Assembly: GCA_035544735.1 (NCBI GenBank) | Contig: DATKCD010000013.1 | Span: 3,412 to 67,411 of the forward strand | Direction: 5' to 3' | Source: Thermoanaerobaculia bacterium | GTDB lineage: Bacteria > Acidobacteriota > Thermoanaerobaculia > Gp7-AA8 | Length of the DNA: 64,000 nucleotides | In this document: positions 1,884-60,188 of the stretch, piece by piece | Layout: the number at the start of each line of letters is the position of its first letter | Position numbering within the stretch: position 1 is the stretch's first letter | The notes under the pieces: generated by a model | The model's database searches: none | What the model was told of the DNA's origin: nothing | The model's input: only the letters and a program-made list of their open reading frames with translations | Program-made: the position numbers and the translations under genes

Positions 1884-2294
1884 TCAGTCGTTCAGGATCT
1901 CGACACGGGTCGCGCGCGCCCGCCGGGGATACGATTCCAGGACCGGCCCGGTATACCACGCAACGACCCGCTGGCCGGGCTCCATATCGAAGAATCCGGC
2001 GGCGATCACTCCCTGCGCCGTGCGGCGGAGCACGAGCGTCGAGGCGCCGACCGCGACCACGTCCTTTGCCGAGCCCGACGGCTCGGCAGGATTTTCCTCG
2101 ACGAGAATCGTCCCCGACTCCGCCCCCCCTGCGTCAACGGTGAGAGTCGTGATGGTTCCGCGCACGTCGGGAGGCTCTTCCTGCGGGGCGGCGGCGCACG
2201 CGGCGACGAAAAGGACGGCGGCGAGAACGGCGAGTCGGGCTCTCACGACTCGAGGATGAGCAATGAGCGCGCCAGAGGCTTCCGCCGGCACCAC
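1884..2294 (-). CDS. Small hypothetical lipoprotein
   Basis: 136 aa. Lipobox LFVAAC after a hydrophobic h-region. Confidence 0.5.
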   Translation of the reverse strand: MVPAEASGALIAHPRVVRARLAVLAAVLFVAACAAAPQEEPPDVRGTITTLTVDAGGAESGTILVEENPAEPSGSAKDVVAVGASTLVLRRTAQGVIAAGFFDMEPGQRVVAWYTGPVLESYPRRARATRVEILND

Positions 2295-2305: not shown

Positions 2306-2806
2306 TCAGTCGGTCGGCCGCTTCACGATCCGCTTGACGAGCTGAATCTGCCCGGTGTGATAGAGATCGTGAGCCGCGACGCCGGAGACGAGCTGTCCGA
2401 CGAGCCAGATGCCGCCTCCCGGGGGCTTCCGGTCGAGGTCGGCGTCGCGGAGCGAGGCGACGACCCGCTTCAGCTCGTCATGCTCGCCCTTCAGCAGACC
2501 GACGATCTCCTTCCACTCCCCCGCGGTCAGCGAGCTCGCCGAAAACCAGTTGCTTCCGTCGAGGGCGAAGCTGCCGCGCTTCCGTCCGGTGATCCGCCGG
2601 CGAACCGTGTACTTCCAGTAGGCGGCATGCATCACCAGCTCGGCGACGTTGTGCCGCCCTTCGGAAGGACGTCGGACGGCCTCCGACGCGGTCAGTCCGC
2701 GGATCGAGCCGCGAAGCGTCGTTCCATGCCACGCCTTCCGGTCGAATGCCTCGTCGAGAATCCGCAGGAGCAGCCGGACGGCAGGGGCCGCAGGGGGAGT
2801 CGCCAT
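2306..2806 (-). CDS. DinB/YfiT-like (DinB_2) metal-dependent hydrolase family protein
   Basis: 166 aa. WHGTTL...HAAYWKY...HDLYHTGQI pattern typical of the DinB_2 four-helix family. Confidence 0.75.
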   Translation of the reverse strand: MATPPAAPAVRLLLRILDEAFDRKAWHGTTLRGSIRGLTASEAVRRPSEGRHNVAELVMHAAYWKYTVRRRITGRKRGSFALDGSNWFSASSLTAGEWKEIVGLLKGEHDELKRVVASLRDADLDRKPPGGGIWLVGQLVSGVAAHDLYHTGQIQLVKRIVKRPTD

Positions 2807-3257
2807 GGGTCAGTCCTCCTCGGGCCGCTCCATCGGAGCGGGCGGTGAGCTCCCGGGCGCTCGGGTCGCGCCGGGTCGGGCGATGATCGCGCGCCGGTCA
2901 GTGGTGAAGCGACCGGGTGCGATCACGCCATACGGCGGAAGACGGCCGCCGCCACGGAACGTGACGCCCTGGGCGCTTTCTCTCGAAGCAACGGACTCCG
3001 GTTCCCGGACGTGCAACATCGACCATGAGCATGAAACCCACCTCCCACCCGCGCCGTTCGGCGCGGAGACCACGAAGCTCGGGCAATGCAGCGCCACATC
3101 TCTCCCGGATCGACACGAAGAGCGTGAAAGGAAGGCGACGAAACGGGAGGTCGCTGGAGGAGCGGCAGGCGGCCCCTGCGAGTCCCGCCGGCTGCGGGAA
3201 CCAGCCACTCCCCCCCGAAGACGAATGCGAACGAATCGATGGATCTAGGATACACCC

Positions 3258-3512
3258 GTCTGGAGCGTCTGGAGCGTCTTGGGCGTCTGGAGCGTCTTGG
3301 GCGTCTTGGGCGTCTGGAGCGTCTTGGGCGTCTGGAGCGTCTTGGGCGTCTTGGATCGGTGATACGCCAGAGTCAGAATGCAGAATGCAGAATGCAGAAT
3401 GCAGAATGCAGAATGCAGAATGCAGAAAGATGCTGGCTCACCTCCGGACTTTCGCAACTCTTCAGACACTCCTTGACGCCCTGGACACTCGAGACGCCCG
3501 AGACGCCGCAGC
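3258..3512. repeat. Composite inverted tandem-repeat element A
   Basis: Direct array of the 9-bp unit GCGTCTKGR, about 11 copies (3258-3354). Then CAGAATG heptamer x7 plus CAGAAAG (3374-3429). Then about 4 reverse-complement 9-mers GACGCCNNG (3474-3512). The element ends at the stop codon of the anti-sigma gene. Confidence 0.85.
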
Positions 3513-3979
3513 TATTCGCCCGCGAGGGCGGTATGCACGGTGAGCAGGACGGTGGCGCAGCCGAGGGTGAAGACGGCGGCGAGCAGGGAGGGAGAGACCG
3601 AGGCTCCTTCGATCGCGGAAGCGACGGCCCGGTCGAGTGAGAAATTCGCAATGACGTCCCACTTCCACGTCAGCAGCGCCGCCCAGCAGAATGCGATTAC
3701 GCCGAATCCGACGCGCTGGAGCAGATGGAGCGGCTGGAGGACCTTCTGGTCGGAGATTCGGCTGCCGAACAGTTCCGCCTTGAGCCTCAGAATGCTCGGA
3801 TCGACCGGCGCCGGAGAGCGGGGAGCCTCCGAGGCCATCCGGTTCATCCAGACGGCGACCTTCGCCGCCTCGGAGCAGTCGGCGCACGACCGCGCGTGGT
3901 CGCGCAGCGAATCCGGCAGATCGCCGTGCTTCATCGCGCGGATCAGATCGAGCTCGAGATCGCATCCTTCCCTTCTCAC
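3512..3979 (-). CDS. Anti-sigma factor, zf-HC2 type, membrane-spanning
   Basis: 155 aa. H-x3-C-x2-C motif (HARSCADC) near the N-terminus and a C-terminal TM segment. GTG start overlaps the ECF sigma stop as GTGA. Confidence 0.65.
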   Translation of the reverse strand: MRREGCDLELDLIRAMKHGDLPDSLRDHARSCADCSEAAKVAVWMNRMASEAPRSPAPVDPSILRLKAELFGSRISDQKVLQPLHLLQRVGFGVIAFCWAALLTWKWDVIANFSLDRAVASAIEGASVSPSLLAAVFTLGCATVLLTVHTALAGE

Positions 3980-4527
3980 GAGATCACCTCCGGGCCGAGT
4001 CCGAGAGACCGCAGTGTGTCGCCGAGCTTACGCCGGGCGCGGAACAGGAGAACTCGGACGCTCCCTGGCGCCACCCCGGCGATCGCCGCGATCTCCCGGT
4101 GGTCGAATCCTTCCACGTGGGCGAGCCACAGCAGCGACCGCTCGCGCGGGGTGAGTCTGCGGAACGCCCGCCCCATGTCGTGACGCAGCTCGGCCGATTC
4201 GGTCCGGCGATCGGTCTGGCGCAGGCCGAGCCATCCCTGCCGCTCCCTCCTGACCCTGCGGATGTGATCGATCGCCTGGTTCGTCGCCGTCCTGTAGAGC
4301 AGCCCGCGGATCCGCGACTCCTCCGTGCCGTCGAGCGGCGTGCGGAGGAGCTGGAGGAAGGCCTTCTGCGTCAGGTCGTCGGCCGCGGCGGCGTCGCCCG
4401 TCATCCGCTGCAGATAGGCCCACAACGACCGGGCCGTCCGTCGATAGAAGACCTCGAACTCGGCTTCGCTGAGGACGGCGGTTCCGTCTCGGGCCGCGGT
4501 TCGGGTCAGGGCCACCTCCGTTCGCAT
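3976..4527 (-). CDS. ECF (sigma-70 family, group IV) RNA polymerase sigma factor
   Basis: 183 aa. Region 2 (DLTQKAFLQLL) and region 4 HTH (REIAAIAGVAPGSVRVLLFRARRKL). Confidence 0.85.
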   Translation of the reverse strand: MRTEVALTRTAARDGTAVLSEAEFEVFYRRTARSLWAYLQRMTGDAAAADDLTQKAFLQLLRTPLDGTEESRIRGLLYRTATNQAIDHIRRVRRERQGWLGLRQTDRRTESAELRHDMGRAFRRLTPRERSLLWLAHVEGFDHREIAAIAGVAPGSVRVLLFRARRKLGDTLRSLGLGPEVIS

Positions 4528-5294: not shown

Positions 5295-5750
5295 ATGGCT
5301 CGCTATCAGGTCGAAGAGTACGTCCGGTGGGAGGACATCGATGCCGCCGGCATCATCAACTACCAGGCCTATCTCCGGTTCTTCGGCCTCGCGGAGGCGG
5401 AGCTGTTCCGGTCGGCGGGGCTGAGCTACCGCTATCTGTTCGACGTCCTTCACCTCTGGCTCCCGCGCGTCCGGGTGGAGTGCGACTTCCACGTGCCGGT
5501 CACCCTCGACGAGCTGCTGGTAGTCGATGCCTTCTTCGGGAAGATCGGGCGGACCTCGATTCATCTGCAGTTCGAAGTGCGGCGGAAGAGCGACCCGGGA
5601 ACGATCGTCGCAACGGGGAAGTACGTTCTGGTGGCCGTGCGGCAGGGGGAATTCGCACCGGTCGCCGTGCCCGAGGACGTTCGAAACCGGATCGCGCCGT
5701 TCGTGGAGACGACGTCTCCGCGCGGGCGGGACGACCCGAACGGGAGCTGA
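5295..5750 (+). CDS. Hotdog-fold acyl-CoA thioesterase (4HBT/YbgC-like)
   Basis: Start refined to MARYQVEEYVRWEDIDAAGIINYQAYLRFF. Typical 4HBT N-terminal strand and helix. Confidence 0.7.
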   Translation: MARYQVEEYVRWEDIDAAGIINYQAYLRFFGLAEAELFRSAGLSYRYLFDVLHLWLPRVRVECDFHVPVTLDELLVVDAFFGKIGRTSIHLQFEVRRKSDPGTIVATGKYVLVAVRQGEFAPVAVPEDVRNRIAPFVETTSPRGRDDPNGS

Positions 5751-6429: not shown

Positions 6430-6669
6430 CCGGGGCGTCTGGAGCGTCTGGAGCGTCTAGGGCGTCTTGGGCGTCTTGGGCGTCTAGGGCGTCTCGGGCG
6501 TCTTGGGCGTCTTGGGCGTCTTGGGCGTCTTGGGCGCTCGTCAATAGAACGCGGGACGTAGCAGGTAGAACGTAGAGAGCCTGACGGATCCGCAGACGAT
6601 CTGGACGCCGCAGACGCCGACGCTCCAGACGCTCCAGACGCTCGAGACGCCCTAGACGCCCTAGACGCC
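6430..6669. repeat. Inverted 9-bp tandem-repeat element B
   Basis: Forward GCGTCTNGN array of about 12 copies (6433-6536). Loop with TAGAACG x3. Reverse-complement array of about 8 copies (6596-6669). It spans exactly from the PilZ-gene stop to the murB stop, and the last unit CTAGACGCC contains the murB stop. Confidence 0.85.
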
Positions 6670-19841: not shown

Positions 19842-19894
19842 GGCGAAACGGAGCGTGAAGACCGGAGGTTCGTGAGAGGGCGAGCTTCGAGGAG

Positions 19895-20445
19895 CGCCGC
19901 TTCGCGGCAAATGCAGAATGCAAAATGTAAAAGAGTGTCGCGATAGTTCGGGCGGTCAGTGCGCTCCCGAATGATCATGACCCGGAAGGCTTCTCACGGA
20001 ATCGGGGGCCGAGTCGTAGGAGTCCGCCGGCCGCAAGGCCGGCCCCTCTCCCGGTGGGAGAGGGTGCCGAGCGAAGCGAGGCGGGTGAGGGGCGCGGGCG
20101 GTGACGGAGTGACCGTACGCACGACGGACGAAGCGGAGCAACTGCGCGCGCCGCGAGCTTCGCGCGAGGCGAGCGGGCGGAGAATCCCCTCACCCGCCTG
20201 CGCCTCCCTTCGGTCGGCTCCGGCACCCTCTCCCAGAGGGAGAGGGGCGTCTCGCGCAGCCTGAGCCGAGTGCGAAAGGGACCTCATGCCACGGAGTCAG
20301 ATCGAGAAGGCGCTGCGCATGCGCGGACGTGCCGAGGCGAAGGAAAGTCATCACACTCGAGCGCGCTGACCGCCGGGAACCAGCGTGACGTCCTTTTACA
20401 TTTTGCATTTTGCATTCTGCATTCTGCATTTGCCGCGAAGCGGCG
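19895..20445. repeat. MITE-like element E
   Basis: Left end CGCCGCTTCGCGGCAAATGCAGAATGCAAAATGTAAAAG. The right end is its reverse complement with two extra heptamer units. The core has nested palindromes: CCCTCTCCCGGTGGGAGAGGG(TGCC) at 20040-20065 pairs with (GGCA)CCCTCTCCCAGAGGGAGAGGG at 20222-20250, and GCGAGGCGGGTGAGGGGCG pairs with CGCCCCTCACCCGCCTGCGC. No plausible ORF inside. Confidence 0.7.
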
Positions 20446-20482
20446 TTCCCGTACCGCCTCCCTCCTCCACAACCCGGAGGGG

Positions 20483-26715: not shown

Positions 26716-27144
26716 GAGCGTCTGGGGCGTCTGGAGCGTCTGGGGCGTCTGGAGCGTCTTGTGCGTCTAGGGCGTCTTGTGCGTCTTGGGCGTCTTGTGC
26801 GTCTCGGGCGTCTTGTGCGTCTAGGGCGTCTTGTGCGTCTTGTGCGTCTTGAGCGTCTAGGGCGTCTTGTGCGTCTTGAGCGTCTGGAGCGTCTAGGGCG
26901 TCTTGTGCGTCTTGAGCGTCTTGAGCGTCTGGAGCGTCTGGAGCGTTTTGAGCGTCTGGAGCGTCTGGACCATCTTGGGCGTCTGGCGCGGCACGGCCCG
27001 GTGCAGGTGAATCGATTCCAGACGCACGAGGAGCACGAGGCGCCCCAGACCCCCTAGACGCACAAGACGCTCTAGACGCTCTAGACGCCCTAGACGCCCT
27101 AGACGCCCTAGACGCACAAGACGCACAAGACGCTCAAGACGCCC
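26716..27144. repeat. Inverted 9-bp tandem-repeat element C (largest copy)
   Basis: About 30 direct GCGTCTNGN units (26716-26990). 60-bp spacer. About 10 reverse-complement units (27050-27144). Runs from the DUF2007 stop to the terC stop. Confidence 0.9.
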
Positions 27145-45292: not shown

Positions 45293-45738
45293 GGGCGTCT
45301 TGGGCGTCTTGGGCGTCTTGGGCGTCCTGGGCGTCTGGAGCGTCCTGGGCGTCTTGGGCGTCTTGAGCGTCTTGAGCGTCTTGAGCGTCTTGAGCGTCTT
45401 GAGCGTCTTGAGCGTCGAGTATCGATTCACGTCGAAGATCCGGACCGTCCCCTGCCGTCGGCCGCACCGGGTCGGCCCGAGAGCCCGAGGAGTGAGGAGC
45501 AGGATCGTTCTATCTTCTACGTTCTACGTTCTACGTTCTATGTTCTGCGTTCAAGAAGATCTACAGAGGCTCCAGACGCTCCAGACGCTCCAGACGCTCC
45601 AGACGCTCCAGACGCTCCAGACGCTCCAGACGCTCCAGACGCCCTAGACGCTCCAGACGCCCTAGACGCCCTAGACGCCCTAGACGCTCAAGACGCCCTA
45701 GACGCTCCAGACGCCCTGGACGCCCAAGACGCTCAAGA
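45293..45738. repeat. Inverted 9-bp tandem-repeat element D
   Basis: About 14 direct GCGTCTNGN units (45293-45416). Unique spacer. ACGTTCT-type heptamer x5-6 (45511-45556). About 19 reverse-complement units (45565-45738) that cover the dnaJ stop. Confidence 0.9.
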
Positions 45739-51285: not shown

Positions 51286-51372
51286 TCCGCCCGCCCCGGT
51301 GTGGTCGGGCGTCCCGACCGCCCCCGGGTGGGTGGCTGCGCCGAACCCGGTGTGATCATCGGGAGAGCGCCC

Positions 51373-51510
51373 TCCGGGCAAATGCAAAATGCACAATGCA
51401 AAATAATGCAAAATGGACAATCCAAAAAGGAGCCGACGACCCTCGACCGTCGCCGACCGATTCTGGCTGCTTCTCTTTGGATTGTGCATCGTGCAGTTTG
51501 CATTCGGCCG
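51373..51510. repeat. Heptamer-array hairpin element F
   Basis: Left arm CCTCCGGGCAAATGCAAAATGCACAATGCAAAATAATGCAAAATGGACAATCCAAAAAG. Right arm is its imperfect reverse complement (CTTTGGATTGTGCATCGTGCAGTTTGCATTCGGCCGGAGG). 37-bp loop. Confidence 0.75.
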
Positions 51511-51551
51511 GAGGCCCGCACGACTACGCCGCCGGCTCTCTGCGGGAGGTC

Positions 51552-58210: not shown

Positions 58211-59226
58211 GCGAGCGCGCGGCGATCCTGCTCGCGGGGGGGGCCGGCACGCGCCTCTGGCCTCTGAGCACCGACGAGCGGCCCAAGCAGTTCCTCCGGA
58301 TCTTCGAAGGACGCTCGCTCCTGCAGATCGCCTTCTCCCGCATGCGGAACCTCCTTCCGGCCGACCGGATCTTCGTCGCGGCCCACGAGCGCCATCGCGA
58401 AGCGATCTTCGCCGAGCTGCCCGAGCTCCCCCCCGACAACGTCCTGCTCGAGCCCGAGCGGCGGAACACCGCGCCCGCGATCGCCGTCTCCTGCTCGCAG
58501 GTCGCGCGCACCCTCGCCGGCGATCCGGTCATCGGGATCTTCCCCTCCGATCACTTCGTCGCGGACGAGGACGCATTCGTCCGCACCGTCGACCGCGCCT
58601 TCCGCTTCGCCGCGACCGAGCCGTTTCTCGTCACGATCGGAATCGATCCCGATCATCCCAACACCGGCTTCGGATATCTCGAGCTCGGAGAGACGATGGG
58701 GGACGAAGTCATCCGGCTGCTCCGCTTCGTCGAGAAGCCGACGCGGGAGCGCGCCGAGGAGTTCGTCCGGAGCGGGCGGTTCGTCTGGAACGGAGGGATG
58801 TTCGTCTGGCGCCGGAGCACCTTCGAGAACGCGCTGGAGGCGACCGCTCCGGAGATCGCGGCGATCGCCCGGAAGCTCGCCGGCGCTTCGGCAGCCGAGC
58901 GGAAGACCCTCTACGCGCAGATGCCTTCGATCTCGATCGACTTCGCCGTGATGGAGAAGGCGCCGAACGTCGCGACCGTCCGGGGATCGTTCGGCTGGTC
59001 CGACGTCGGGTCGTGGAAGGCCGTCGCGAAGATCGTCGGGCAGGGACTGGAGGAGGGAGTGATCCGCGAAGAGTCGCCCGGCTCGCTGGTGCACGCCCGA
59101 GGCGACCGCCCCGTCATCCTCATCGGCGTGCCCAACATCGCCGTCGTCGACGTCCCCGAAGGACTCCTCGTCATCGACCTCGACCGATCCGAGCACCTCG
59201 CCTCGGTCCTCAAGAAGCATGAGTAA
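58207..59226 (+). CDS. manC: Mannose-1-phosphate guanylyltransferase (GDP-mannose pyrophosphorylase)
   Basis: ATG at 58207 overlaps the upstream stop (ATGA). LLAGGAGTRLWPLS nucleotidyl-transferase motif. The listed 1746-aa ORF is an artefact. Confidence 0.85.
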   Translation: MSERAAILLAGGAGTRLWPLSTDERPKQFLRIFEGRSLLQIAFSRMRNLLPADRIFVAAHERHREAIFAELPELPPDNVLLEPERRNTAPAIAVSCSQVARTLAGDPVIGIFPSDHFVADEDAFVRTVDRAFRFAATEPFLVTIGIDPDHPNTGFGYLELGETMGDEVIRLLRFVEKPTRERAEEFVRSGRFVWNGGMFVWRRSTFENALEATAPEIAAIARKLAGASAAERKTLYAQMPSISIDFAVMEKAPNVATVRGSFGWSDVGSWKAVAKIVGQGLEEGVIREESPGSLVHARGDRPVILIGVPNIAVVDVPEGLLVIDLDRSEHLASVLKKHE

Positions 59227-59347
59227 GGCATTGATGATTGATGATTGATGATTGATGATTGACGGCTCGATCATCGAGCATCAATCATAGATCATCAATC
59301 AAAAATGCCTTTCAATCATCAATCATAGATCATAGATCATCAATGCC
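59227..59347. repeat. TGATTGA-heptamer inverted-repeat element G
   Basis: GGCATTGA(TGATTGA)x4...central palindrome GCTCGATCATCGAGC...TCAATCA/TAGATCA units...TCATCAATGCC. Terminal inverted repeats GGCATTGATGA/TCATCAATGCC. The right repeat contains the ATG (59343-59345) of the next gene. Confidence 0.85.
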
Positions 59348-60188
59348 TTCTGGCGTGTTCGACATTCACCTTCACGTGCAGCCCTGGGAGATGCTGCGGG
59401 ACGAAGTGCGGCCGCTCATCGACGACGAGTCGCACCGCGGCGCCGCGGAGATTCTCGCCTCGGCTCCGCGCCTCCTCGACTGGATGGATAAGGAAGGGAT
59501 CGCGCGCGCCTGCTGCATCAACTACGTCTCCCCCGACGTGATGGGATTCCCCGCCGCGGTGAACGACTGGATCGCGACCTTCACGCGCGCCCATCGCGAC
59601 CGCCTCCTCCCCGTCGGCTCGGTCCATCCGAAGACCACTCCCGACCTCCGCTCCGAGATCCTCCGCCTGCTCGACCTCGGCATGCGGATGATCAAGATCC
59701 ATCCGCCGCATCAGCTCTTCGCCGCGAATGCCTACCGCTCCGGCCTGCCGGGCCTCGCCGCCGTCTACGCCGAATGCGAGACGCGCGGAGTCCCGGTGAT
59801 GTTCCATACCGGAACGTCGATCTTTCCGGGAGCGCGGAACGTCTACGCCGACCCGATGCCGATCGACGACGTCGCCGTCGATTTTCCGCGCCTCACGATC
59901 ATCCTGGCGCATGCCGGCAGACCTCTCTACGGCGACACCGCCTTCTTCCTCGTGCGGAGGCATCGCAACGTGTTCCTCGATCTGTCCGGCATCCCTCCGA
60001 AAGCGATCCCGCGATACGTCCCGCGCCTGGCCCACATTTCGGAGCGGGTCCTCTGGGGAACCGACTGGCCCTCGCCCGGCGTGGTCTCGCCCCGCGCGAA
60101 CGTCGAGCAGTTCCGCGCCCTCGGTCTCGGAGAAGAAGTCGAGCGCAAGATCCTCGGCGAAAACGCCGCCCTGTTGTTCCCGACGTAG
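59343..60188 (+). CDS. Amidohydrolase-2-family TIM-barrel metal-dependent hydrolase
   Basis: Start refined to MPSGVFDIHLHVQ (H-x-H metal motif at the N-terminus). HTG and later His/Asp (GTDWP). Confidence 0.7.
   Translation: MPSGVFDIHLHVQPWEMLRDEVRPLIDDESHRGAAEILASAPRLLDWMDKEGIARACCINYVSPDVMGFPAAVNDWIATFTRAHRDRLLPVGSVHPKTTPDLRSEILRLLDLGMRMIKIHPPHQLFAANAYRSGLPGLAAVYAECETRGVPVMFHTGTSIFPGARNVYADPMPIDDVAVDFPRLTIILAHAGRPLYGDTAFFLVRRHRNVFLDLSGIPPKAIPRYVPRLAHISERVLWGTDWPSPGVVSPRANVEQFRALGLGEEVERKILGENAALLFPT

What the first reader, a model, noticed from the sequence alone, without database searches (positions are those of the whole stretch)
3258..3512. Composite element A joins the 9-mer arrays to a CAGAATG heptamer array, linking two repeat families
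At A, a direct 9-mer array is followed by eight CAGAATG-type heptamers and then a short inverted 9-mer arm. The same heptamer family (GCARAAT read on the other strand) forms the terminal inverted repeats of elements E and F. A shares this heptamer core with E and F. B and D carry a different heptamer, TAGAACG/ACGTTCT, in their loops, which points to modular assembly. The AT-rich heptamer run in a GC-rich genome lies upstream of the DinB-family gene, after a 430-bp gap (2810-3257). Variation in unit number could change promoter spacing, which would be phase variation by simple-sequence-repeat slippage.
Basis: partly seen in the sequence, partly recalled or inferred. Interest (0 to 1): 0.55.

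Follow-up and report, generated by a model that had tools for sequence, protein, structure and literature searches.

The report
Tandem-repeat hairpin after a stop codon
Element A is one copy of a family of hairpin-forming stretches built from short tandem repeats, which this soil bacterium (class Thermoanaerobaculia) and its relatives place directly behind the ends of genes. Here it is an insertion behind an anti-sigma gene, not a promoter switch for the DinB-like gene, and what such elements do is still unknown.

Summary
A has 10.9 GCGTCTNGR nonamers (3257-3354), 7.7 perfect CAGAATG heptamers (3374-3427) and a degenerate inverted nonamer arm (3463-3507). The same nonamers build palindromes B, C and D. 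The same heptamer builds the arms of E and F.

The phase-variation reading is not supported. A starts 4 nt after the stop codon of an ECF sigma/anti-sigma operon. In three related species the same stop codon is followed within 2-19 nt by a conserved motif, a conserved leader, a conserved 44-aa small ORF and then DinB_2. In the window, A sits exactly between the stop and that motif, so it is a lineage-specific insertion or expansion. The "430-bp gap" is a conserved leader plus an unannotated gene.

Across 80 Thermoanaerobaculia loci, arrays of period 7-10 are common and mostly come in inverted pairs. They begin at stop codons, with the G-rich strand as the sense strand (81:10). Orthologous arrays differ by 0-1 unit between close species. 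The closest published analogue is the Xanthomonas GGGAATC heptamer repeats, whose function is unknown.

Best reading: A is a dispersed, slippage-evolving repeat palindrome at a gene's 3' end. Its role as a stem-loop is inferred, not shown.

The parts
3257..3354 (+). Left arm of A: 10.9 GCGTCTNGR nonamers (GGA and TGG variants, 27-bp higher-order period). It is G-rich on the + strand and is the C-rich 3' arm for minus-strand transcripts.
3355..3373 (.). Unique 19-bp spacer between the nonamers and the heptamers.
   Evidence: no significant similarity to the D or B loops
3374..3427 (+). CAGAATG x7.7, perfect (GCAGAAT in the phase of E/F). It has no inverted partner within A.
3428..3462 (.). Unique spacer in the loop of A.
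3463..3507 (-). Right arm of A: five degenerate nonamers, which read GCGTCTCGG GCGTCTCGA GTGTCCAGG GCGTCAAGG on the minus (sense) strand. It begins 4 nt after the anti-sigma stop codon.
3512..3979 (-). Anti-sigma-like gene (155 aa), stop codon at 3512-3514. Orthologues in 43 of the related loci sit in the same synteny.
3976..4527 (-). ECF sigma factor gene, first gene of the pair whose 3' end A follows.
   Evidence: Sigma70_r2, Sigma70_r4_2
3236..3256 (-). Conserved motif GGTGTAnnnTAnnnnCATCGA. In L003, L204 and L207 it lies 2-19 nt after the anti-sigma stop; in the window it lies directly after A. It marks the insertion point.
3033..3235 (-). Conserved non-coding leader. It has a CCUCC-type stretch predicted to pair with the Shine-Dalgarno sequence of the small ORF.
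   Evidence: four sequences only
2898..3032 (-). Unannotated conserved small ORF, 44 aa (MLMVDVARPGTGVRCFERKRPGRHVPWRRP...), with Shine-Dalgarno sequence GGGAGG at 3041-3046.
   Evidence: same length in 4 species, dN 0.19-0.34 well below dS, differences by codon position 46/39/96; no Pfam hit
2306..2806 (-). DinB_2 family gene.
   Evidence: orthologues at 69% identity in the same position
6433..6669 (.). Element B: nonamer palindrome that fills the gap between the convergent PilZ-like and murB genes, with two TAGAACG in the loop. The murB stop lies inside the last unit.
   Evidence: z=-9.3
26716..27144 (.). Element C: nonamer palindrome (about 30 and 14 units) between convergent genes. Both stop codons lie at or inside the arrays.
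45295..45738 (.). Element D: nonamer palindrome that fills the dnaJ-prmA spacer, with CGTTCTA x6.7 at 45506-45552. Read on the minus strand it has the same architecture as A.
   Evidence: z=-17.4
19891..20449 (.). Element E: 560-nt nested palindrome whose outer arms contain GCAGAAT/GCAAAAT heptamers. It lies at the 3' end of glnS.
   Evidence: z=-12.3
51371..51514 (.). Element F: palindrome with GCAAAAT/GCACAAT heptamer arms between convergent genes.

Best explanation
A is a partly decayed copy of a dispersed, genome-specific family of palindromes whose arms are tandem arrays of a 9-nt unit. In A, B and D these palindromes also carry a block of GYAGAAY heptamers at the inner end of the G-rich arm. 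The family is one local form of a feature found across the class Thermoanaerobaculia: arrays of 7-10-nt units, usually in inverted pairs, that begin at or within a few bases of a stop codon, with the G-rich strand as the sense strand of that gene. In this lineage A was inserted, or grew, exactly between the stop codon of the ECF sigma/anti-sigma operon and the conserved leader of the next transcription unit (small ORF plus DinB_2).

Shown: the anatomy, the insertion point, the family relations, the anchoring to stop codons, the strand polarity, and the slow change in unit number.

Inferred: (a) the arrays lengthen and shorten by replication slippage, and the two arms are kept alike by intrastrand template switching or gene conversion; (b) the copies are spread by some copying process, because the same unit and the same set of variants occur at four sites in 64 kb; (c) where the element has an effect, it acts as a long stem-loop at the 3' end of the upstream transcript, serving as a transcript end, an insulator from the downstream unit, or a double-strand RNA processing site. 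On this reading, unit-number changes alter stem length and not promoter geometry.
For: Anatomy and significance.

Position: A is 4 nt from the anti-sigma stop.

Empty sites: L003, L204-206 and L207 have the same gene order, with the conserved motif 2-19 nt after the stop. The window has A between the stop and the motif.

The gap holds a conserved leader and a small ORF under purifying selection.

Folding: A has z=-5.2 (sense) and z=-7.0 (antisense), B -9.3, D -17.4, E -12.3.

Class-wide survey of 80 murB loci plus the window (1.29 Mb):
- Arrays of period 7, 8 and 9 have inverted partners in 88/171, 26/50 and 14/47 cases, while period 6 and 12 have none in 45.
- Of neighbouring arrays no more than 300 nt apart, 59 are inverse-related and 4 direct.
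- The 5' arm has G>C in 50 cases against 5 (p=2e-10).
- 95 array-stop pairings (92 arrays) lie within -25..+30 nt of a stop codon, with sense-strand G>C in 81 against 10 (p=6e-15). The same holds for unpaired arrays, 33 against 6.
- The same intergenic sites carry different unit families in different species. At the A site these are L002, L007, L063 and L069. At the B site these are L003 and L207.
- Orthologous arrays in close species differ by 0-1 unit.

Local runs of one variant in each arm (D: TGA x6 on the left, GGA x8 on the right) indicate slippage.

Published analogue: Xanthomonas GGGAATC repeats have 70-75 convergent pairs, with the G-rich strand within 50 bp after stop codons on the coding strand, and phase variation was judged unlikely there (PMC4692102).
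Against: There are no expression data, so the stem-loop role is inference.

No terminator-like hairpin with a T-run is found in 2700-3700.

In tandem gene contexts the sense-strand RNA is not more stable than the antisense RNA (20:17). For A itself the antisense strand folds better, so G-U asymmetry gives no support for selection at the RNA level.

A's arms are very unequal (11 against 5 units), so much of the left arm and all the heptamers are left in a large loop.

The unique loop sequences of A, B and D are not detectably homologous, and no target-site duplication can be seen. This is unlike a classical mobile unit, so the mode of spread is open.

Insertion and in-situ growth cannot be told apart at 30% divergence from the nearest relative.

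Array lengths come from a metagenome assembly.
Confidence: 0.55

Rival explanations
1. Phase variation: slippage in the CAGAATG run changes promoter spacing and switches the DinB-family gene on and off.
For: The run is perfect (7.7 copies, 100% identity) and therefore prone to slippage. It lies upstream of DinB_2 on the same strand side. A conserved TAnnnT-like hexamer within the motif at 3236-3256 might be a -10 element next to the array (speculative).
Against: The run is 342 nt from the small ORF start and 568 nt from the DinB_2 start, inside the loop of a palindrome. There is no promoter-like hexamer pair in 2700-3700. Relatives without A keep the whole leader, small ORF and DinB_2 unit. 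If a promoter used the outermost nonamer, unit-number changes inside a periodic array would not change its distance to the motif. The class sits next to housekeeping genes, and orthologous arrays change by 0-1 unit over 6-10% divergence. The same conclusion was reached for the Xanthomonas repeats (PMC4692102).
Confidence: 0.05
2. Selfish non-autonomous mobile element (MITE-like or foldback-like): A-D are copies inserted as units by a transposase encoded elsewhere. They are tolerated at gene ends and have no host function.
For: The same 9-nt unit and the same variant set occur at four sites in 64 kb. A is absent from the orthologous site in three species. The asymmetric heptamer block lies in either orientation relative to the flanking genes, with A and B one way and D the other, as expected for random insertion orientation. 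The arms resemble the tandem-repeat inverted terminal repeats of eukaryotic Foldback elements (own knowledge).
Against: The internal unique sequences are not homologous between copies. There is no target-site duplication and no transposase in the window's flanking genes that were tested. A purely selfish element does not explain the strict strand polarity of unpaired arrays relative to the neighbouring gene (33:6). At the B site a GCGTCT-core array is present next to the PilZ-like stop in a species with 68% identical DinB_2 (L207), which suggests long persistence in place.
Confidence: 0.22
3. DNA-level element: arrays of binding sites for a protein, or G-quadruplex or cruciform-forming DNA on the non-template strand, acting on transcription, replication or chromosome structure.
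For: The polarity is defined by the G-rich strand, as in the Xanthomonas G4 repeats (PMC4692102). B and the outer part of D contain canonical G3N6 quadruplex motifs. Some heptamer unit families recur across species. There is no sense/antisense asymmetry in RNA stability.
Against: Only 8 of 92 stop-adjacent arrays have a canonical quadruplex motif, and A's left arm has none. No motif is shared by the unit families. Periods of 7-10 nt do not match the helical repeat. Anchoring to stop codons points to transcription or translation rather than to replication.
Confidence: 0.1
4. Neutral by-product: a lineage with error-prone handling of short repeats and palindromes lets slippage and template switching build arrays wherever selection is weakest, which is just past stop codons.
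For: Runs of identical variants; unequal, decaying arms in A; abundance across the whole class; heptamer excess in other bacteria has been ascribed to polymerase slippage (Mrazek 2007, as summarised in PMC4679880).
Against: It explains neither the 81:10 strand polarity, nor the same unit at many sites in a genome, nor the recurrence of unit families across species.
Confidence: 0.08

Closest known systems
G-rich intergenic heptamer repeats of Xanthomonas (GGGAATC) and Nostoc (GGGGAYT), Rehm et al. 2015, PMC4692102
   Same: They are tandem arrays of a 7-nt unit, 2-26 copies, spread over the genome in non-coding DNA. There are 70-75 pairs in convergent orientation able to form stem-loops. The G-rich strand lies on the coding strand within 50 bp after, or overlapping, the stop codon. 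The neighbouring genes are of general metabolism. Length varies between related species while position is kept. The function is unknown and phase variation was judged unlikely.
   Different: Here there are many unit families per genome instead of one, and units of 7, 8, 9 and 10 nt. Most units lack G3 tracts (8/92 have a canonical quadruplex motif). Arms reach up to 30 units. Composites of two unit families occur (A, B, D; L038). The host is a different phylum, Acidobacteriota.
REP / BIME / REPIN elements of Enterobacteria and Pseudomonas
   Same: They are extragenic, palindromic and present in many copies. They lie at 3' ends of genes and inside operons, and are thought to act as RNA stem-loops while also being mobile (PMC3333891, PMC3116915, PMC2817692, listed; details from own knowledge).
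   Different: REPs are single imperfect palindromes of 20-40 nt with a conserved 5' tetranucleotide, and they are linked to RAYT transposases. Here the arms are tandem arrays of 7-10-nt units. No such tetranucleotide is present, and no RAYT could be looked for.
Heptamer direct repeats of cyanobacteria (STRR) and marine Beggiatoaceae (TAACTGA), PMC4679880
   Same: They are abundant intergenic heptamer arrays of unknown function, with a sporadic taxonomic distribution.
   Different: TAACTGA repeats are direct (169 sets, one inverted), short (2-6 copies), and sit just upstream of start codons. The present arrays are mostly inverted pairs anchored to stop codons.
Simple-sequence-repeat contingency loci (phase variation in Haemophilus, Neisseria)
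   Same: A perfect tandem repeat prone to slippage in non-coding DNA upstream of a gene.
   Different: Contingency repeats lie between promoter hexamers, in 5' UTRs or in 5' coding regions of surface or restriction genes, and they vary within populations. A lies after a stop codon, far from any start codon, and next to housekeeping-type genes. Orthologous arrays of the class change slowly.
Foldback transposons of eukaryotes and bacterial MITEs (own knowledge)
   Same: Long inverted arms that are themselves made of short tandem repeats (Foldback), and non-coding dispersed inverted-repeat elements (MITEs).
   Different: There is no target-site duplication, no conserved internal sequence, no associated transposase, and a strand polarity tied to neighbouring genes.

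Membership tests
SSR contingency locus (phase variation) | The repeat lies within a promoter (between or next to the -35/-10 hexamers), a 5' UTR or the 5' coding region of the regulated gene. | tested here: not met
   The heptamers lie 342 nt from the next start codon (small ORF) and 568 nt from DinB_2. A begins 4 nt after a stop codon. No promoter-like site is found in 2700-3700.
SSR contingency locus (phase variation) | Unit number is hypervariable between strains or within read sets. | not testable with these tools
   The only other assemblies of this strain break inside the arrays, and the nearest relatives are at most 71% identical. For the class, orthologous arrays differ by 0-1 unit at 6-10% divergence.
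SSR contingency locus (phase variation) | Association with surface, virulence or restriction genes. | tested here: not met
   The flanking genes are ECF sigma/anti-sigma, DinB_2, murB, dnaJ/prmA, glnS and terC.
Xanthomonas/Nostoc-type intergenic heptamer SSRs (Rehm 2015) | Genome-wide intergenic tandem arrays of a roughly 7-nt unit. | tested here: met
   There are 27 arrays of period 6-12 nt in the 64-kb window and 322 in 1.29 Mb of the class. Period 7 dominates (171).
Xanthomonas/Nostoc-type intergenic heptamer SSRs (Rehm 2015) | The G-rich strand is on the coding strand within 50 bp after the stop codon. | tested here: met
   Sense-strand G>C in 81 cases against 10, p=6e-15. A's right arm follows the rule.
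Xanthomonas/Nostoc-type intergenic heptamer SSRs (Rehm 2015) | Frequent convergent (inverted) pairs. | tested here: met
   There are 66 pairs. Of neighbouring arrays, 59 are inverse and 4 direct.
Xanthomonas/Nostoc-type intergenic heptamer SSRs (Rehm 2015) | At least four G3+ tracts, giving a G-quadruplex. | tested here: not met
   A canonical motif is found in 8 of 92 stop-adjacent arrays. It is present in B and the outer part of D, but not in A.
Xanthomonas/Nostoc-type intergenic heptamer SSRs (Rehm 2015) | Under-represented between divergent genes. | tested here: inconclusive
   8 of 50 placed pairs lie between divergent genes, against 22% of all intergenic regions. Gene starts were called crudely.
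REP/BIME/REPIN | A 20-40-nt imperfect palindrome with a conserved 5' tetranucleotide, and a RAYT gene in the genome. | tested here: not met
   The arms are tandem arrays with no conserved terminal tetranucleotide. Presence of a RAYT gene is not testable from a 64-kb window.
MITE / foldback transposon | Target-site duplication and conserved internal sequence among copies. | tested here: not met
   The boundaries of A-D show no common duplication. The loops are not significantly similar.
Intrinsic (Rho-independent) terminator | A short G+C-rich stem-loop followed by a U-run. | tested here: not met
   No such site is found in 2700-3700 on either strand. No T-run follows A, B or D.
Known RNA families (Rfam) | A match at gathering score. 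| tested here: not met
   There are no matches in the whole window, and no tRNA or tmRNA.

The most novel reading that the evidence does not exclude
Stop-codon-anchored, strand-polar tandem-repeat palindromes may be a distinct, actively maintained class of gene-end elements in Thermoanaerobaculia, and perhaps the same thing as the unexplained Xanthomonas repeats. On this reading the cell, or a dedicated copying machinery, writes G-rich 7-10-nt arrays right after stop codons, and these arrays serve as the lineage's transcript-end, insulation or processing signals in place of canonical terminators. A would then be a caught example of a new element arising between a stop codon and a conserved leader. 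Because most units cannot form quadruplexes, the polarity would point to a co-transcriptional mechanism that is not G4-based, for example avoidance of Rho loading on the first arm or a weak hybrid over the C-rich second arm.
Probability: 0.15. Interest if true: 0.8.

Novelty: new variant of a known kind. Interest (0 to 1): 0.5.

Why it matters
Long-unit (5-11 nt) tandem repeats, heptamers above all, have been known since 2007 to be over-represented in scattered bacterial lineages, and no function has been found for them. The Xanthomonas study proposed G-quadruplexes.

The present material shows the same rules (position right after stop codons, G-rich sense strand, inverted pairing) in a different phylum and across dozens of unit sequences, most of which cannot form quadruplexes. 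That separates the rules from the quadruplex idea and makes the question testable. The polarity and the stop-codon anchoring are what need explaining.

Three practical points follow:
- These arrays break short-read assemblies, so contigs end in them.
- They can be mistaken for regulatory repeats of the downstream gene.
- They hide small genes: here a conserved 44-aa ORF and its leader sit in what looked like an empty gap.

Tried and rejected
1. Promoter or terminator in A: the consensus scan found none.
2. Coding repeats: the gap and the arrays have no codon-position G+C signature, and the long ORFs tested across the gap and A have no Pfam hit.
3. Known RNA or tRNA: none.
4. Same nonamer arrays elsewhere:
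- None in 1.2 Mb of related MAGs.
- A viral scan for three GCGTCTNNN units gave more than 120 hits, all direct arrays in unrelated contexts and none inverted.
- The metagenome scan for the composite (two nonamers, a gap, two heptamers) gave one hit with only two units of each repeat, which looks like chance.
5. Homology of the loops of A, B and D beyond the heptamers: not significant.
6. Mirror order of unit variants in the two arms: absent, so the arms evolve by local amplification.
7. G-quadruplex as the general explanation: 8 of 92 arrays.
8. Units supply stop codons in all three frames: 27 observed against 21 expected, z=2.0. Shine-Dalgarno-like units: z=1.9. Both are too weak.
9. A universal motif in the units: none. 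GGTT/GTTG is only the commonest family.
10. G-U asymmetry to find the functional RNA strand: 20:17, no signal.
11. Strain comparison of copy number: impossible. Exact-protein look-ups return only two short contigs of one sample, and both end in the arrays. All other homologues are at most 71% identical.
12. The nucleotide-level conserved block at 5316-5667 turned out to be a 4HBT thioesterase gene.
13. A positional hotspot downstream of murB was considered. Occupancy there is not clearly above what restriction to intergenic DNA gives.
Full report
**Observation**

The sequence at 3257-3507 is as described. It has 10.9 copies of a 9-nt unit GCGTCTNGR (3257-3354), then a 19-bp spacer, then 7.7 perfect copies of CAGAATG (3374-3427), then a 35-bp spacer. 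The last part is a short, degenerate arm of the reverse-complemented nonamer, which Tandem Repeats Finder places at 3475-3507 and phasing extends to 3463-3507. Chance does not produce this. A nonamer dimer with at most 1 mismatch occurs 89 times against 0.06 expected, only in four elements: A, B 6433-6669, C 26716-27144 and D 45295-45738. A GCARAAT dimer occurs 13 times against 0.01 expected, only in A, E and F. E (19891-20449) and F (51371-51514) are palindromes whose arms contain these heptamers. B has two TAGAACG and D has CGTTCTA x6.7 in their loops. Two contigs from an independent k-mer assembly of run SRR8556377 are 99.9-100% identical to the flanks. One ends 3 nt into the nonamers and the other ends inside the heptamers, so the element is not an artefact of one assembler, but short-read assemblies break in it.

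**Surroundings**

The window is 67% G+C and comes from a Thermoanaerobaculia (Acidobacteriota) metagenome-assembled genome. All genes around A are on the minus strand:
- ECF sigma factor, 3976-4527.
- An anti-sigma-like gene, 3512-3979.
- A itself.
- A 450-bp stretch, 2807-3256.
- A DinB_2 family gene, 2306-2806. This is the DinB/YfiT-like helical-bundle family, not DNA polymerase IV.

A's right end is 4 nt from the anti-sigma stop codon (3512-3514).

**A is an insertion relative to relatives, and the "gap" is not empty**

The order murB / PilZ-like / 4HBT thioesterase / DUF6249 / ECF sigma / anti-sigma is conserved in about 43 related loci. Three species also have DinB_2 next: L003, L204-206 and L207, with DinB_2 68-69% identical. 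In all three, the anti-sigma stop codon is followed after 2, 15 or 19 nt by a conserved motif GGTGTAnnnTAnnnnCATCGA. In the window the same motif (3236-3256, minus strand) follows A directly. A therefore lies exactly between the stop codon and the motif, and the relatives are empty sites.

Downstream of the motif all four species share two features. One is a leader of about 200 nt, in which a CCUCC-type stretch is predicted to pair with a strong Shine-Dalgarno sequence (four sequences only). The other is a 44-codon ORF of identical length, at window 2898-3032 (MLMVDVARPGTGVRCFERKRPGRHVPWRRP...). Its pairwise dN is 0.19-0.34 against dS of 0.7-1.5 or saturated, and its differences by codon position are 46/39/96. 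It has no Pfam match. So the DinB_2 gene is preceded by its own conserved unit, which does not need A.

**The family within the window**

B and C fill the whole space between convergent genes, and D fills the dnaJ-prmA spacer. Stop codons lie within a few bases of, or inside, the outermost units. For example, murB ends ...GCG TCT AG within a unit. All four elements have the same intrinsic polarity: the G-rich GCGTCT arm comes first and the AGACGC arm second on either strand. The arms are unequal (A 11/5, B 11/6-9, C 30/14, D 13.5/19 units) and do not mirror each other in variant order. Instead they show local runs of one variant (TGA x6, GGA x8), the signature of slippage. As single strands they fold far better than shuffles: A z=-5.2 and -7.0, B -9.3, D -17.4, E -12.3.

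In A, B and D (D read on the minus strand) the heptamers occupy the same place: the inner end of the G-rich arm, on the same strand as that arm. The rest of the loops is not detectably homologous. The heptamers of A (CAGAATG) and of B/D (TAGAACG, CAGAACA) are variants of one superfamily, because relatives interleave GCAGAAT, GCAGAAC and GCAGAAG in single arrays (L062, L038). A third heptamer palindrome (ATTGATG, 59225-59349) lies after another stop codon.

**A class-wide feature**

None of the 80 related murB loci (1.2 Mb) has the GCGTCT nonamer arrays, but they are full of analogous elements.
- Arrays of period 7, 8 and 9 have an inverse-related partner within 1 kb in 88/171, 26/50 and 14/47 cases. 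Period 6 and 12, which are compatible with coding, have none in 45.
- Of neighbouring arrays no more than 300 nt apart, 59 are inverse-related and 4 direct.
- The first arm has G>C in 50 of 55 informative pairs (p=2e-10). This property is unchanged by reverse complementation.
- There are 95 pairings (92 arrays) of an array starting within -25 to +30 nt of a stop codon. The sense strand of that gene has G>C in 81 against 10 (p=6e-15), and the same holds for arrays without a partner, 33:6.
- Some unit families recur across species. GCAGAAT itself occurs in L062 and L080, as small hairpins at gene boundaries (directly after a stop codon in L062).
- The same intergenic sites carry different families in different species. 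Directly after the anti-sigma stop, L002, L007, L063 and L069 have their own arrays (L024 has one about 106 nt further on), and three contigs end within 50 nt of that stop. Between murB and the PilZ-like gene, L003 has AAGGCAG arms. L207 has GTCGGGGA after murB and a GCGTCT-core 8-mer array next to the other stop. L204 has none.
- In species pairs 6-10% diverged, orthologous arrays persist and differ by 0-1 unit.
- A nested composite of two families also exists in L038.

**What is known**

The closest published description is Rehm et al. 2015 (PMC4692102). Xanthomonas has about 185 GGGAATC arrays, of which 70-75 pairs are in convergent orientation. The G-rich strand lies on the coding strand within 50 bp after, or overlapping, the stop codon. 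Positions are kept but lengths vary between two species. Phase variation was judged unlikely because the neighbours are general-metabolism genes, and "a potential functional role ... remains to be elucidated". Mrazek et al. 2007, as summarised in PMC4679880, found heptamers to be the commonest long-unit repeats and suggested polymerase slippage. The Beggiatoaceae TAACTGA repeats are direct and lie upstream of start codons. I found no paper on such repeats in Thermoanaerobaculia.

**Interpretation**

A is a member of this kind of element. It is a dispersed palindrome built from tandem repeats, placed at the 3' end of the sigma/anti-sigma operon, and partly decayed on one side.

The phase-variation idea fails on five counts: position, lack of a promoter, dispensability in relatives, gene neighbourhood, and slow change of orthologous arrays. 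Variation of the perfect heptamer run itself could not be measured.

What the element does is inferred. The anchoring to stop codons and the gene-relative polarity point to a process coupled to transcription or translation. The strong folding suggests a 3' stem-loop acting as a transcript end, an insulator or a double-strand RNA processing site.

Against this, there is no U-run and no sense/antisense asymmetry in RNA stability (20:17). Quadruplexes (8/92), three-frame stops (z=2.0), Shine-Dalgarno-like units (z=1.9) and a common motif were all tested and do not explain the class.

A selfish mobile element remains a serious rival. It explains the spread and the two orientations of the heptamer block. 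It does not explain the polarity of unpaired arrays, the missing target duplications, or the unrelated loops.

**Caveats**
- Gene calls in the survey are my own codon-position heuristic, and start codons are unreliable.
- Most related genomes are short-read MAGs, which under-represent long arrays.
- Arm lengths above about 140 bp in the window may be collapsed.
- The nearest relative with the A site is about 30% diverged at the protein level, so insertion and in-situ growth cannot be separated.

**Verdict**

The proposed mechanism is not supported. The element is a new variant of a known but unexplained kind of bacterial repeat.

Noticed in passing
window 2898-3032 (minus strand): An unannotated conserved small ORF of 44 aa, very basic (…GVRCFERKRPGRHVPWRRP…), with Shine-Dalgarno sequence GGGAGG. 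It has the same length in four species, dN well below dS, and no Pfam match. It lies between the anti-sigma gene and DinB_2.
   Followed up: partly
window 3033-3256 (minus strand); L003 11036-11292; L204 3497-3738; L207 3538-3781: A conserved leader that starts with the motif GGTGTAnnnTAnnnnCATCGA. It contains a CCUCC-type stretch predicted to pair with the small ORF's ribosome-binding site, so it may be a translational control element. There is no Rfam match.
   Followed up: partly
66 paired elements and 92 stop-adjacent arrays in the window and L002-L081: There is a strict polarity. The arm next to a stop codon is G-rich on the sense strand (81:10), and the first arm of a pair is G-rich on either strand (50:5). 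Most units cannot form quadruplexes. This remains unexplained.
   Followed up: partly
window 19891-20449: E is a 560-nt multi-level nested palindrome (z=-12.3) at the 3' end of glnS. Palindromes this long are unstable in E. coli, which suggests this lineage tolerates them.
   Followed up: partly
window 59225-59349: A third unit family, ATTGATG. It has one G-rich arm followed by two alternative complementary arms, so two mutually exclusive hairpins are possible. It starts right after a TAA stop codon.
   Followed up: partly
L207 541-635: In a species with 68% identical DinB_2, the murB/PilZ-like spacer has (GAGTCGGG)x4.8 after the murB stop and an 8-nt array with the same GCGTCT core as the window's nonamer next to the other stop. 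The two arrays are not complementary to each other.
   Followed up: no
L001 end (window 3260), L202 end (window 3401); L050, L075, L077 contig ends: Short-read contigs end inside or at the edge of these arrays. Three related contigs stop within 7-50 nt after the anti-sigma stop codon, so arrays are probably under-counted in MAGs.
   Followed up: no
L042 7813-7843, L050 6559-6647, L038 5594-5800 and others: Upstream of one orthologous gene (MGEVRLFQICYEG…), different species carry different heptamer families: TTGAAAA/TTTTCAA in several and GCAGAAC/GCAGAAG in L038. The position is kept while the unit sequence turns over.
   Followed up: partly
window 1884-2294 (minus strand): A DUF3221 gene lies between DinB_2 and the class-V aminotransferase in the window, but it is absent from that position in L204 and L207. 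This is a small lineage-specific gene gain next to the locus.
   Followed up: no
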